DNA from: Escherichia coli O157:H7
GTDB lineage: Bacteria > Pseudomonadota > Gammaproteobacteria > Enterobacterales > Enterobacteriaceae
Reading direction: 5' to 3' (one strand)
Assembly (NCBI RefSeq): GCF_013167455.1
Contig: NZ_CP038328.1
DNA: 64,000 nt
Made by a program: the position numbers and the translations under genes. The notes beneath the pieces are model-generated. The model ran no database searches. It was not told the DNA's origin and worked only from the letters and a program-made list of their open reading frames with translations. Within the stretch, counting starts at the first letter, position 1, and each line of letters opens with the position of its first letter. Shown here in pieces: positions 35,610 to 36,849 of the stretch.

Positions 35610-35720
35610 ATATTCATCCCTGAAATGTATTAATGAAATAAACGATATTTTACGCGCAATAAATGTTTGGCGCATTAGTTGTTTGAGCGAAAAATATCTG
35701 GGAAGCAGATCACAGTAAAT

Positions 35721-35885
35721 AAAAAAACCTGCTGGTGAGGCAGGTTCTTTTATTTACTATTTTCAGGCCTAACACCACAGCCTGTGCAACATCGTGTTCC
35801 AACGAACGAATTATAACCACGGCTGGACCCCGTTGCAATTAAGATAATGAGATTTATAATCCTGACTGTTGGGACGTTGCGCCGG
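35721..35885 (-). ncRNA. Candidate Orz-type antisense sRNA antitoxin (copy 1): divergent from the toxin mRNA, overlapping its 5' end, ending at a terminator hairpin (35726-35746) with a U7 tract on the minus strand
   Basis: Inferred from the known zor/orz architecture (sRNA divergent from and overlapping the 5' end of the toxin UTR) plus a strong minus-strand intrinsic terminator; boundaries approximate, promoter not identified. Confidence 0.3.
35833..35860 (+). promoter_or_regulatory. Sigma70-type promoter of zor copy 1: -35 TTGCAA (35833-35838), 16-bp spacer, -10 TATAAT (35855-35860); predicted TSS about 35868, giving a 174-nt 5' UTR
   Basis: Consensus hexamers seen; the predicted UTR length equals the 174-nt UTR recalled for zorO. 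Confidence 0.55.
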
Positions 35886-36041
35886 ATCGAACCTATTTCA
35901 AGTCCTGGCTACCGGACGGGGGGTGCTGCAGGTGGTGCCCTGATCCGGAGTGCAACATCGTGGTCCAACATACGTAAACCAGTATCGACAGGCAGTGTAA
36001 GGGTAAGGTGCTGGTGTTGCGCTCCTTAATAAGGAGAGCGG

Positions 36042-36131
36042 ATGGACTCGCTGACACAAAAGTTAACCGTGCTCATTGCTGTACTGGAGCTATTAGTAGC
36101 TCTGTTACGGTTGATTGATTTGTTGAAGTAA
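36042..36131 (+). CDS. zorP: Type I toxin of the ZorO family, 29 aa (MDSLTQKLTVLIAVLELLVALLRLIDLLK), probably the zorP-type paralog
   Basis: Hand-translated 29-codon ORF with AAGGAGAG RBS; differs by one residue (S3) from copy 2; single predicted TM helix; followed by a hairpin at 36153-36177. Confidence 0.8.
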   Translation: MDSLTQKLTVLIAVLELLVALLRLIDLLK

Positions 36132-36329
36132 CGGGCAAATTGAAACGCATCTAAGGGGGAAAACCGCTTCCCCCTTTAATAAAATGATTACTGTTTTTAT
36201 TAATTCATCATATAACTCATTTTTATTTATAAATTCATCGATTTTATATTCAACGCACCATTTGACCGGGATGTGAATATTTATGGTGGGCTATTGGCAA
36301 AAAAATATCTGGAAAGTAGATCGCAGAAA

Positions 36330-36494
36330 ATAAAAAAACCTGCTGGTGAGGCAGGTTCTTTTATTTACTACAGTGACGCTAACTTGCTGATTGTGCAACA
36401 TTTCGTACCAACGAATAAATTATAACCATATCCACACTCCATTGCAATTCAGTGAGTGAGATTTATAATCCTGCCCGTTGGGAGGTTGTGCCGG
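36330..36494 (-). ncRNA. Candidate Orz-type antisense sRNA antitoxin (copy 2), ending at terminator hairpin 36337-36357
   Basis: Same reasoning as copy 1; boundaries approximate. Confidence 0.3.
36443..36470 (+). promoter_or_regulatory. Sigma70-type promoter of zor copy 2: -35 TTGCAA (36443-36448), 16-bp spacer, -10 TATAAT (36465-36470); predicted TSS about 36477, 174-nt 5' UTR
   Basis: Consensus hexamers; same UTR length as copy 1. Confidence 0.55.
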
Positions 36495-36650
36495 ATCGGA
36501 CCAATTTTAAGTCCTGGCTGCCGGACGGGTGGTGCCGCAGGCGGTGCCCTGATCCGGAGAGCAACGTTTCGTACCAACATACGTAAACCAGTATCGACAG
36601 GCAGTGTAAGGGTAAGGTGCTGGTGTTGCGCTCCTTAATAAGGAGAGCGG

Positions 36651-36740
36651 ATGGACACGCTGACACAAAAGTTAACCGTGCTCATTGCCGTACTGGAGTT
36701 ATTAGTGGCTCTGTTACGGTTGATTGATTTGTTGAAGTAA
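36651..36740 (+). CDS. zorO: Type I toxin ZorO, 29 aa (MDTLTQKLTVLIAVLELLVALLRLIDLLK)
   Basis: Hand-translated; sequence matches the recalled ZorO peptide; AAGGAGAG RBS; hairpin terminator at 36762-36787. Confidence 0.85.
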   Translation: MDTLTQKLTVLIAVLELLVALLRLIDLLK

Positions 36741-36849
36741 CGGGCAAATTGAAACGCATCTAAGGGGGAATACCGTTTCCCCCTTTAAGAAAGCTATACT
36801 CGTCATACTTCAAGTTGCATGTGCTGCGACTTTAATTATCTAGAGTATA

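What the first reader, a model, noticed from the sequence alone, without database searches (positions are those of the whole stretch)
35690..36800. Two tandem zorO/orzO-type type I toxin-antitoxin modules between yehK and yehL
Two 29-codon ORFs (MDSLTQKLTVLIAVLELLVALLRLIDLLK and MDTLTQKLTVLIAVLELLVALLRLIDLLK) each sit behind a consensus sigma70 promoter that predicts an identical 174-nt 5' UTR, inside a roughly 610-bp tandem duplication. Each unit also has a hairpin that would terminate a divergent minus-strand transcript overlapping the toxin mRNA 5' end, which fits the zor/orz architecture described in E. coli O157:H7 and absent from K-12. The ORF track misses both toxins (under 60 aa) and instead reports spurious 60-aa ORFs inside the UTRs. 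The sRNA boundaries and promoters on the minus strand are not resolved here.
Basis: partly seen in the sequence, partly recalled or inferred. Interest (0 to 1): 0.75.

Follow-up and report, generated by a model that had tools for sequence, protein, structure and literature searches.

The report
Known zorO/zorP toxin–antitoxin pair, O157:H7

Summary
Window 35640-36850 is 100% identical to E. coli O157:H7 chromosomes, in the yehL-yehK intergenic region. Rfam places two OrzO-P antitoxin RNAs on the minus strand, at 99.9 and 88.8 bits against a gathering score of 60. Both 29-codon ORFs are present.

By the published V1 discriminator and the T3S difference, module 1 (35721-36178, MDS...) is zorP/orzP. 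Module 2 (36332-36787, MDT...) is zorO/orzO.

Two corrections:
- **No overlap.** The Orz RNAs do not overlap the zor mRNAs. The start sites lie back to back, 65 bp apart, around one shared palindromic -35 hexamer. The Orz 5' end pairs in trans with +83/85..+102 of the 174-nt leader.
- **K-12 is not empty.** It lacks the toxins but keeps orzP. This is published as OrzPmg.

Toxicity, rescue by OrzO, RNase III dependence, activation by 5' processing and strain distribution are all in the literature (PMC2887945, PMC3919570, PMC5397157, PMC11264685).

The one thing beyond the literature I read: the zor leader is homologous, in sequence and in fold, to the dinQ/dql toxin leaders.

Verdict: already known; low interest.

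The parts
35721..35803 (-). orzP antitoxin sRNA gene (83 nt); 5' end GUUGGAACACGAUGUUGCAC, with V1 (+9..+11) = ACG
   Evidence: Rfam RF02083 hit at 35721-35796, 99.9 bits against a gathering score of 60. The +1 at G35803 is fixed by the published V1 numbering (PMC3919570) and lies 7 nt after the -10. Folds with a 12-bp terminator stem.
35810..35815 (-). orzP -10 box (TATAAT on the minus strand)
   Evidence: Promoter scan: TTGCAA-17-TATAAT, 10/12 match.
35833..35838 (.). Palindromic -35 hexamer TTGCAA, used by both the orzP (-) and zorP (+) promoters
   Evidence: Both strands' promoter hits use the same six bases. PMC11264685 Table 3 lists -35 TTGCAA for both zor and orz.
35855..35860 (+). zorP -10 box (TATAAT)
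   Evidence: Promoter scan.
35868..36041 (+). zorP 5' UTR, 174 nt
   Evidence: ATG at 36042 minus the published 174-nt leader length (PMC5397157). G35868 lies 8 nt after the -10.
35950..35969 (+). OrzP target in the zorP leader (+83..+102); 19 of 20 positions paired, with one A.G mismatch at OrzP +7
   Evidence: Complementarity scans.
36042..36131 (+). zorP ORF, 29 aa (MDSLTQKLTVLIAVLELLVALLRLIDLLK) plus stop. The SD AAGGAG is at 36031-36036, inside a 6-bp hairpin.
   Evidence: ORF list. ZorP is T3S relative to ZorO (PMC11264685). ALLRL at residues 20-24 (PMC6669753).
36153..36176 (+). zorP 3' hairpin (AAGGGGGAAAACCGCTTCCCCCTT), the likely terminator
   Evidence: The inverted-repeat scan picks this palindromic segment out as an arm matching its module-2 counterpart. 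The homologous zorO hairpin forms in the mRNA fold. Its position gives an mRNA of about 311 nt, matching the published bands of about 310 and 280 nt (PMC3919570).
36332..36412 (-). orzO antitoxin sRNA gene (81 nt); 5' end GUUGGUACGAAAUGUUGC, with V1 = GAA
   Evidence: Rfam RF02083 hit at 36332-36405, 88.8 bits. V1 numbering from PMC3919570. Fold.
36419..36424 (-). orzO -10 box
   Evidence: Promoter scan.
36442..36447 (.). Shared palindromic -35 hexamer TTGCAA of orzO and zorO
   Evidence: Promoter scan, both strands.
36464..36469 (+). zorO -10 box
   Evidence: Promoter scan.
36477..36650 (+). zorO 5' UTR, 174 nt. The first 28 nt (36477-36504) are removed in the translatable delta-28 form. The EAP region +73..+102 is 36549-36578.
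   Evidence: PMC5397157. In the predicted fold, nt 1-22 pair with +73..+102, and the SD sits in a CUCCUU/AAGGAG hairpin.
36561..36578 (+). OrzO target in the zorO leader (+85..+102; 73-90 nt upstream of the ATG); 18 contiguous pairs, 17 Watson-Crick plus one G.U
   Evidence: [quoted passage not shown]
36651..36740 (+). zorO ORF, 29 aa (MDTLTQKLTVLIAVLELLVALLRLIDLLK) plus stop; SD at 36640-36645
   Evidence: ORF list. Differs from zorP by 3 synonymous changes and one S/T change.
36762..36785 (+). zorO 3' hairpin, the likely terminator
   Evidence: The inverted-repeat scan picks this palindromic segment out as an arm matching its module-1 counterpart, and the hairpin forms in the predicted mRNA fold.

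Best explanation
The region holds two paralogous, independently regulated type I toxin-antitoxin modules of the 'divergent, trans-pairing' kind. They are zorP/orzP (35721-36178) and zorO/orzO (36332-36787).

**Layout.** In each module one palindromic -35 hexamer serves two back-to-back sigma-70 promoters. Leftward transcription gives an Orz sRNA of about 81-83 nt that ends at a Rho-independent terminator. Rightward transcription gives a zor mRNA of about 311 nt with a 174-nt leader and a 29-codon ORF for a hydrophobic inner-membrane peptide.

**Three layers of silencing.**
1. In the primary transcript the first ~22-28 nt pair with +73..+102 (the 'EAP' region), and the Shine-Dalgarno sequence sits in a short hairpin, so translation is poor.
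2. Removal of the first 28 nt frees the EAP region. This region is needed for efficient translation, probably as a ribosome standby site.
3. The 5' end of the cognate Orz RNA pairs with +83/85..+102 of that same region. This blocks translation and triggers RNase III-dependent cleavage.

**Specificity.** Divergent bases at Orz +6 and +9..+11 (V1), each matched by compensating changes in the target, keep the two pairs from cross-talking.

**Toxin action.** If the peptide is made, it inserts in the inner membrane, depolarises it and depletes ATP.

**Shown versus inferred.**
- Shown here from sequence: identity of the locus, the sRNAs, the promoters, the pairing, the compensatory changes, purifying selection on the ORF, and the predicted 5'-end/EAP pairing.
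- Taken from published experiments: zorO was tested for all of the following; for zorP only toxicity (Z3290) was tested, and for OrzP only expression and its failure to repress zorO. The experiments cover toxicity, rescue, RNase III dependence, delta-28 activation and membrane effects.
- Inferred: that OrzP represses zorP through its 6(1)13 duplex, and that the shared -35 makes the two promoters compete.
For: **Identity of the locus**
- 100% identity over 1211 bp to O157:H7 chromosomes, between yehL and yehK.
- Two RF02083 OrzO-P hits above the gathering score.
- The peptides equal ZorO and its T3S variant ZorP (PMC11264685).
- V1 is GAA in the 36412 RNA and ACG in the 35803 RNA, as published for OrzO and OrzP (PMC3919570).

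**Architecture**
- Divergent 10/12 promoters share TTGCAA.

**Pairing**
- OrzO 36412-36395 pairs with zorO 36561-36578 over 18 bp. OrzP 35803-35784 pairs with zorP 35950-35969 over 19 of 20 positions.
- Predicted duplexes favour the cognate pairs: -32.9 vs -26.4 kcal/mol for OrzO and -39.0 vs -29.5 for OrzP.
- Four positions change on both partners between the O and P pairs.
- Four specificity types were seen in seven strains, and every cognate pair has 19 of 20 positions paired at +83..+102.

**Selection**
- Between the two modules, leader +103..+174 is 100% identical, the target 65% and the orz body 50%.
- The ORF differs by 3 synonymous changes and one Ser/Thr change.

**Fold**
- In the full-length zorO mRNA, nt 1-22 pair with +73..+102, and the SD is in a 6-bp stem.
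- The mean unpaired probability of the target rises from 0.35 to 0.47 after removal of 28 nt.

**Published experiments**
- sRNAs of about 85 nt on northern blots, mapped start sites, and toxicity of Z3289/Z3290 (PMC2887945).
- Rescue by OrzO, RNase III requirement, Hfq independence, V1 specificity (PMC3919570).
- Delta-28 activation, the EAP region, and OrzO inhibition of translation (PMC5397157).
- Inner-membrane location, depolarisation, and the need for ALLRL (PMC6669753, PMC9860968).
Against: - No experiment was run here. Expression and toxicity rest on published work with strain EDL933.
- I showed identity to other O157:H7 genomes, not to the EDL933 record itself.
- The predicted opening of the target after 5' processing is modest (0.35 to 0.47).
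- The promoter scan finds no more sites than in shuffled sequence, so the promoters are supported by position and literature, not by statistics.
- In the papers I read, repression of zorP by OrzP was not demonstrated, and its duplex carries an internal A.G mismatch.
- The physiological role is unsettled: extra copies improve growth in aminoglycosides independently of ZorO toxicity (PMC9860968).
Confidence: 0.96

Rival explanations
1. A classical cis-antisense type I module, as in hok/sok or ldr/rdl. The minus-strand RNA would be transcribed across the toxin mRNA 5' end and pair with it over its whole overlap. This is how the first reader described it.
For: The antitoxin lies on the opposite strand, close to the toxin promoter, and each unit has a minus-strand terminator hairpin.
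Against: - The only good minus-strand promoters place the Orz start sites at 35803 and 36412. That is 65 bp upstream of, and pointing away from, the zor start sites at 35868 and 36477.
- The Rfam model covers the whole sRNA within 35721-35796 and 36332-36405.
- Complementarity is limited to 18-20 nt at +83..+102.
- Fozo et al. could detect no antisense RNA opposite the CDS, 5' UTR or 3' UTR (PMC2887945).
Confidence: 0.01
2. The small ORFs are not real genes. On this view the locus encodes only small RNAs, and the 29-codon frames are chance.
For: RefSeq/PGAP annotates nothing between yehL and yehK in O157:H7 TR01. No NCBIfam model matches the peptides.
Against: - AAGGAG lies 5 nt before each ATG.
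- The paralogues differ by 3 synonymous changes and 1 conservative change over 90 nt, against 11 nonsynonymous of 16 differing codons in the overlapping 60-aa frame.
- The peptide is identical in 6 further strains.
- Toxicity depends on specific residues, and FLAG-tagged ZorO was detected from its native promoter (PMC6669753, PMC9860968).
Confidence: 0.02
3. The Orz RNAs, OrzP in particular, have a main job other than silencing their neighbouring toxin, and the toxin genes are dispensable passengers.
For: - About a third of complete E. coli genomes keep an orz gene without any zor mRNA: 5220 genomes match the orz-containing query, but only 3397 match the zor mRNA.
- K-12 keeps orzP, its promoter and the zorP promoter at 97.6% identity.
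- OrzPmg is expressed in MG1655 (PMC11264685).
Against: - No other target is known.
- The co-variation of Orz 5' ends with their cognate zor targets in every full module examined shows that toxin control is under selection wherever the toxin is present.
- This idea adds to the main explanation rather than replacing it.
Confidence: 0.2

Closest known systems
zorO-orzO / zorP-orzP of E. coli O157:H7 EDL933 (Z3289/Z3290; Rfam RF02083)
   Same: Everything tested matches: genomic site, peptides, sRNAs, V1 bases, leader length, position of pairing, and tandem arrangement. This is the same locus.
   Different: Nothing found. The module order in the window is zorP/orzP then zorO/orzO only because the window is the reverse complement of the usual yehI->yehL orientation.
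dinQ-agrB and the dinQ-like (dqlA/dqlB) type I toxin loci of Enterobacteriaceae
   Same: - Divergent, non-overlapping sRNA whose 5' end (GUUGG/GUUAG...) pairs with the leader far upstream of the RBS.
- The primary transcript is inert and is activated by 5' processing.
- RNase III cleaves the duplex.
- The toxin is a single-helix inner-membrane peptide of 27-31 aa.
- The leaders are homologous. A profile built from two dinQ modules finds only the two zor modules in the 64-kb window (E = 1.5e-18 and 6.1e-15). Mean column identity is 73% over about 150 nt. Two hairpins are kept through compensatory changes.
   Different: - The peptides show no detectable similarity.
- There is no LexA box in the zor/orz intergenic region, so zor/orz is not SOS-controlled.
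- The pairing stretch is shorter: 18-20 nt here, against a longer, almost fully complementary AgrB-dinQ region described in the literature (PMC8594479).
- The chromosomal site differs.
- The literature treats them as separate families (PMC8594479). PMC11264685 notes the plasmid hits and says no relationship has been proposed.
tisB-istR1 and shoB-ohsC (E. coli K-12)
   Same: - Divergent sRNA with 18-21 nt of 5'-end pairing to a long leader.
- 5' processing is needed for translation.
- For tisB, the sRNA competes with a ribosome standby site.
   Different: - No sequence similarity was tested or claimed.
- tisB is LexA-controlled.
- These loci are single-copy.
hok/sok, ldr/rdl and ibs/sib (cis-antisense type I systems)
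   Same: A small hydrophobic toxin repressed by an sRNA, often in tandem copies.
   Different: Their antitoxins overlap the toxin transcript, with 60 nt or more of complementarity. Here there is no overlap.

Membership tests
Zor/Orz type I toxin-antitoxin family | Orz sRNA matching the Rfam OrzO-P model (RF02083) above the gathering score | tested here: met
   99.9 bits (35721-35796, -) and 88.8 bits (36332-36405, -) against a gathering score of 60, with full model length 1-76.
Zor/Orz type I toxin-antitoxin family | 29-aa hydrophobic Zor peptide (ZorO, or ZorP = T3S) carrying the ALLRL segment | tested here: met
   ORFs at 36651-36740 and 36042-36131. ALLRL at residues 20-24, GRAVY 1.4. Variant definitions come from PMC11264685 and PMC6669753.
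Zor/Orz type I toxin-antitoxin family | sRNA gene divergent from the toxin gene and not overlapping it | tested here: met
   Back-to-back promoters share TTGCAA, and the start sites are 65 bp apart.
Zor/Orz type I toxin-antitoxin family | 18-19 nt of complementarity between the Orz 5' end and the zor leader about 73-91 nt upstream of the ATG, with V1 (+9..+11) GAA in OrzO and ACG in OrzP | tested here: met
   The zorO target at 36561-36578 lies 73-90 nt upstream of ATG 36651. The V1 bases are as published (PMC3919570).
Zor/Orz type I toxin-antitoxin family | 174-nt leader whose 5' end sequesters +73..+102, with the SD in a stem | tested here: met
   The minimum-free-energy fold of 36477-36787 pairs nt 1-22 with +73..+102 and puts AAGGAG in a 6-bp stem. 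This is a prediction only, and the computed opening after delta-28 is modest.
Zor/Orz type I toxin-antitoxin family | Location between yehK and yehL in Escherichia/Shigella | tested here: met
   The intergenic region is 1240 bp here against 306 bp in K-12, as in PMC2887945.
Zor/Orz type I toxin-antitoxin family | Toxin overexpression arrests growth, and the cognate Orz rescues in an RNase III-dependent way | not testable with these tools
   Published for EDL933 zorO/OrzO, and toxicity also for Z3290 (zorP) (PMC2887945, PMC3919570). I did not find a rescue test for OrzP/zorP.
Cis-antisense type I systems (hok/sok, ldr/rdl type) | Antitoxin RNA transcribed from the strand opposite the toxin transcript and overlapping it | tested here: not met
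   No overlap: Orz runs 35803->35721 and 36412->36332, while zor starts at 35868 and 36477.
DinQ/AgrB and DinQ-like (dql) family | 5' UTR sequence similarity to dinQ, the criterion used to define dql genes in PMC5066626 | tested here: met
   - zorO +28..+140 hits 89 plasmid dinQ/dql leaders at about 74% identity.
- A dinQ-module profile hits both zor modules at E = 1.5e-18 and 6.1e-15.
- A 7-sequence alignment has 73% column identity and 53 invariant columns.
- 93.8% of cells are paired, against 33-52% in slid controls, and 19 of 30 pairs carry compensatory changes.
DinQ/AgrB and DinQ-like (dql) family | Signature amino acids of the DinQ peptide | tested here: not met
   BLASTP of ZorO against plasmid DinQ gives no alignment at E <= 100. 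Both are single hydrophobic helices, but no residue-level similarity was shown.
DinQ/AgrB and DinQ-like (dql) family | LexA box / SOS control (chromosomal dinQ) | tested here: not met
   No CTG-N10-CAG anywhere in 35610-36849. The best match to the 20-nt consensus is 14/20 and lies outside the promoters.

The most novel reading that the evidence does not exclude
zor/orz is not a family of its own. It is a diverged, LexA-independent branch of the dinQ/agrB-dql superfamily. The whole module shares ancestry and a common leader fold: sRNA terminator, sRNA 5' 'seed' starting GUUGG/GUUAG, back-to-back promoters around TTGCAA, and a leader with two covarying hairpins and an invariant GACAGGCA..GUAAG loop.

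The conserved block begins one base after the delta-28 5' end of zorO (UUUUAAGUCCUGG). By my own unverified placement of the dinQ start site, it also begins at the +44 5' end of dinQ (UUUCAAAGUCCUGG). That suggests one conserved processing and activation mechanism.

If so, the 'mutually exclusive structures' model of dinQ and the 'EAP/standby' model of zorO describe the same RNA switch, and each can be tested on the other.

The 2024 mSystems paper saw the plasmid hits but states that no evolutionary relationship had been proposed.
Probability: 0.8. Interest if true: 0.3.

Novelty: already known. Interest (0 to 1): 0.1.

Why it matters
For the scan, this is a positive control: a reader without tools correctly recognised a type I toxin-antitoxin pair that automatic annotation misses. 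PGAP annotates nothing in these 1240 bp, and there is no NCBIfam model for ZorO/ZorP. It adds nothing new to zor/orz biology.

Two by-products may interest specialists:
- The zor leader belongs by sequence and fold with the dinQ/dql leaders. This would merge two experimentally studied systems into one RNA-switch family.
- A mismatch at Orz position +7 recurs in three of the four specificity types sampled here.

Tried and rejected
- **NCBIfam on both peptides:** no family at E <= 1. This explains the missing annotation but says nothing about function.
- **BLASTP of ZorO against DinQ:** no alignment. Peptide homology is therefore not claimed.
- **Promoter-scan statistics:** 4 sites found against 4.0 +/- 2.2 expected. 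The count alone is no evidence; only position, duplication and literature support the promoters.
- **Sub-threshold Rfam hits under the Orz terminators:** STnc370 32 bits, Thr leader 26 bits, Trp leader 22-23 bits, and a + strand OrzO-P half-hit of 25 bits. All are far below their gathering scores and are driven by the terminator hairpin, so I judged them chance.
- **isrH hit at 36795-36849:** 20.8 bits against a gathering score of 45, so rejected. The segment is a short dispersed repeat.
- **ERIC element idea for that repeat:** I suspected from memory that it was the end of an ERIC/IRU element. A second copy (L015) lacks any match to the ERIC core primers, best 11-13 of 22, so this is not supported.
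- **The 60-aa ORFs in the leaders:** rejected as genes. Their start codons lie upstream of the transcription start, and 11 of 16 differing codons are nonsynonymous.
- **LexA control of zor:** no box found.
- **Not attempted, because the 2024 survey already covers them:** large protein-database searches with the 29-aa peptide, and scans of non-E. coli genome collections.
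Full report
**1. What is there**

- Two 29-codon ORFs lie on the + strand at 36042-36131 (MDSLTQKLTVLIAVLELLVALLRLIDLLK) and 36651-36740 (MDTLTQKL...).
- Each follows TTGCAA-16-TATAAT, at 35833-35860 and 36442-36469.
- Starts at G35868 and G36477 give 174-nt leaders.
- The repeat period is 609-611 bp.
- About 494 bp is shared at about 87-88% identity, and about 117 bp of AT-rich spacer is unique.

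The 60-aa ORFs at 35847-36029 and 36456-36638 start inside the promoter spacer, upstream of the transcript. Their two copies differ mostly by nonsynonymous changes, 11 of 16 codons.

**2. Identity**

Window 35640-36850 is 100% identical to E. coli O157:H7 chromosomes (strains TR01 and Z1769). It lies between yehL (34521-35609, -) and yehK (36850-37167, -). The whole window is colinear with TR01 at 98.2% identity.

Rfam finds the OrzO-P antitoxin family (RF02083) twice on the minus strand, at 35721-35796 (99.9 bits) and 36332-36405 (88.8 bits). The gathering score is 60. These are two of only three Rfam families that pass threshold in the 64 kb.

This is the locus found by Fozo et al. 2010 as Z3289/Z3290 'between yehI and yehL', with an intergenic region of 1.2 kb against 0.3 kb in MG1655 (PMC2887945). 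Wen et al. 2014 named it zorO-orzO / zorP-orzP (PMC3919570).

**3. Which module is which**

Wen et al. define V1 as Orz +9..+11: GAA in OrzO and ACG in OrzP.
- The minus-strand RNA starting at G36412 reads GUUGGUACGAAAUG, so V1 = GAA.
- The one starting at G35803 reads GUUGGAACACGAUG, so V1 = ACG.

ZorP is the T3S variant of ZorO (PMC11264685).

Module 1 is therefore zorP/orzP and module 2 is zorO/orzO. The order is reversed with respect to the papers only because the window is the reverse complement of the yehI->yehL direction.

The same +1 assignment also reproduces the published '5(1)12' pairing of the OrzP-V1 mutant. It also reproduces the published target position of about 73-91 nt upstream of the ATG; here it is 73-90.

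**4. Architecture, and the correction**

The minus-strand promoters are TTGCAA-17-TATAAT, with -10 boxes at 35810-35815 and 36419-36424. They use the very same palindromic TTGCAA hexamer as the plus-strand promoters. The two start sites of a module are therefore back to back, 65 bp apart, and the transcripts diverge.

The Orz RNAs run 35803->35721 (83 nt) and 36412->36332 (81 nt). They end in a 12-bp stem followed by U7. This fits the roughly 85-nt northern bands (PMC2887945).

They do not overlap the zor mRNA, contrary to the finding. Fozo et al. explicitly failed to detect antisense RNAs opposite the CDS or UTRs.

Pairing is in trans:
- OrzO nt 1-18 pair with zorO +85..+102 (36561-36578), giving 17 Watson-Crick pairs and one G.U.
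- OrzP nt 1-20 pair with zorP +83..+102 (35950-35969), with 19 of 20 paired and an A.G mismatch at +7.

**5. Evidence from sequence that the pairing matters**

Between the O and P pairs, four positions (Orz +6, +9, +10, +11) differ on both partners yet keep the pair.

Predicted duplex energies favour the cognate pairs: -32.9 against -26.4 kcal/mol, and -39.0 against -29.5.

In seven further modules from six strains (Nissle 1917, EC77, MINF_2E, G5, BCE049, 2020CK-00188) I found four different Orz 5' sequences. Each is matched by its own zor target, with 19 of 20 paired at +83..+102.

Segment by segment, the two modules in the window compare as follows:

| Segment | Identity |
|---|---|
| Leader +103..+174 | 100% |
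| Orz terminator | 100% |
| Target | 65% |
| Orz body | 50% |

The ORFs differ by three synonymous changes and one Ser/Thr change. So the coding frame, the RBS-proximal leader and the terminator are conserved, while the recognition elements have diverged together. This is what insulation of two paralogous pairs predicts, and it agrees with the lack of cross-repression by OrzP (PMC3919570).

**6. Mechanism**

[quoted passage not shown] It places AAGGAG in a CUCCUU/AAGGAG hairpin. Removing 28 nt raises the mean unpaired probability of the Orz target from 0.35 to 0.47, and that of the EAP region from 0.32 to 0.42. The SD stays paired.

The direction of this change matches Wen et al. 2017:
- The full-length leader inhibits translation.
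- The delta-28 form is hyper-translated.
- Probing shows +73..+102 opening while the RBS stem is unchanged.
- OrzO inhibits translation by binding that region (PMC5397157).

Repression in vivo needs RNase III but not Hfq (PMC3919570).

A full-length transcript ending at the 36762-36785 hairpin is about 311 nt, and the delta-28 form about 283 nt. This fits the published bands of about 310 and 280 nt.

The peptide is one hydrophobic helix (GRAVY 1.4) with ALLRL at residues 20-24. Published work shows inner-membrane location, depolarisation, ATP loss and dependence on ALLRL and R23 (PMC6669753, PMC9860968).

**7. Distribution**

Among 5426 complete E. coli genomes:

| Category | Genomes | Share |
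|---|---|---|
| Carry a zor mRNA (up to 4 places per genome) | 3397 | 63% |
| Carry the inter-module junction, i.e. a tandem | 1816 | 33% |
| Match the orz-containing query | 5220 | 96% |
| orz-only (by subtraction) | about 1823 | about 34% |
| Nothing | about 206 | about 4% |

K-12 (TG1) keeps window 35610-35898 at 97.6% identity. That is orzP, both promoters and 31 nt of the zorP leader, then joins directly to the sequence before yehK.

All of this reproduces Shore et al. 2024: 3% none, about 30% orz-only, 25% one copy, 42% two copies, and OrzPmg expressed in MG1655 (PMC11264685).

Automatic annotation misses the locus. PGAP lists no feature between yehL and yehK, and NCBIfam has no model for the peptides.

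**8. Beyond the published picture**

zorO +28..+140 matches 89 plasmid records from Salmonella, E. coli and Klebsiella at about 74% identity. In pFORC51 the match lies 35 nt upstream of an annotated dinQ.

A profile made from one plasmid and one chromosomal dinQ/agrB module finds, in the whole 64-kb window, only the two zor modules (E = 1.5e-18 and 6.1e-15). For module 2 the alignment runs from the sRNA terminator through TTGCAA to the ATG.

I aligned three zor leaders with four dinQ/dql leaders:
- Mean column identity is 73%, with 53 invariant columns.
- The RNAalifold structure has 30 pairs, of which 19 show compensatory changes.
- 93.8% of cells are paired, against 33-52% when the partners are slid. 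No shuffle in 500 reaches the observed covariation score.
- Caveat: there are only seven sequences, and the structure was derived from the same alignment.

The peptides themselves do not align, and zor/orz has no LexA box.

The literature lists Zor/Orz and DinQ/AgrB as separate families with the same layout (PMC5397157, PMC8594479). The dql family was defined by leader similarity without including zor (PMC5066626). The 2024 paper noted the plasmid hits and said no relationship had been proposed.

I therefore consider common ancestry of the leaders well supported. It is a small, specialist-level addition.

**9. Verdict**

The feature is real, correctly identified, and already described in detail. 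Interest is low. One architectural statement in the finding (overlap) is wrong, and one ('absent from K-12') is incomplete.

Noticed in passing
window 36505-36653 and 35896-36044; loci L011 703-853, L012 about 500-650, L013 504-651, L014 502-652: The zor 5' leaders are homologous in sequence and predicted fold to the leaders of dinQ and the dinQ-like toxins (dqlB, and a dinQ-like gene between mnmH and ybbP). The conserved block starts one base after the published zorO delta-28 processed 5' end. The peptides do not align, and zor has no LexA box.
   Followed up: partly
window 35797 (OrzP +7) with 35963; also L003, L004, L007, L008, L009, L010: The Orz:zor duplex carries a mismatch at Orz position +7 in three of the four specificity types sampled (A.G, A.A, G.A). 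The O type is the exception. Its recurrence across diverged pairs suggests it is kept for a reason, such as tuning repression, tuning RNase III cleavage, or a constraint from the leader's own 5'-end pairing.
   Followed up: partly
window 35833-35838 and 36442-36447: The single palindromic hexamer TTGCAA is the -35 element of both divergent promoters of a module. Toxin and antitoxin transcription may therefore compete for one RNA polymerase binding site. The chromosomal dinQ/agrB module aligns to the same hexamer.
   Followed up: no
window 36795-36849: A 55-nt element with 7-bp terminal inverted repeats (TATACTC...GAGTATA) lies between the zorO terminator and yehK. It has copies elsewhere in E. 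coli chromosomes, for example L015 251-306 near yafP. K-12 keeps only its right end at the deletion junction. It gives a weak sub-threshold isrH hit, and no ERIC core was found next to the second copy.
   Followed up: partly
L010 (E. coli 2020CK-00188) about 1500-1620: This strain has a full zorP-type module followed by an orzO-type sRNA gene with promoter but no zorO, i.e. a '1.5-copy' arrangement. The same class was reported in PMC11264685.
   Followed up: no
window 32231-34510: yehM is interrupted by an internal stop, giving ORFs at 32231-32962 and 32981-34651. The matching O157:H7 TR01 record also marks it as a pseudogene.
   Followed up: no
window 37229-47675: A run of three large DUF4132 paralogues (yehI and two upstream copies) lies on the minus strand. 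In the window the middle copy is split (40868-42607 and 42573-43853). The third is also split (43866-46757 and 46947-47675), though it is intact in strain TR01. A 188-bp internal repeat lies between 43657-43844 and about 47479-47666.
   Followed up: no
window 1 to about 25300: This stretch carries a lambdoid prophage: lysis genes, terminase, portal, capsid, tail, tail fibres, lom and a dinI-like gene. Going by the matching TR01 annotation, it ends next to btsS/btsR, with a short gene fragment at the junction. That is the mlrA (yehV) region known from memory as a Stx-phage insertion site in O157:H7.
   Followed up: no
window 60946-61042 (+): A TPP riboswitch (RF00059, 71.2 bits) lies upstream of thiM-thiD. 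This is expected and ordinary.
   Followed up: no
window 36327-36392 (-): A sub-threshold Rfam hit to the Salmonella sRNA STnc370 (32 bits against a gathering score of 54) lies over the OrzO terminator half. It is probably just terminator similarity, but a Salmonella relative of Orz was not excluded.
   Followed up: no
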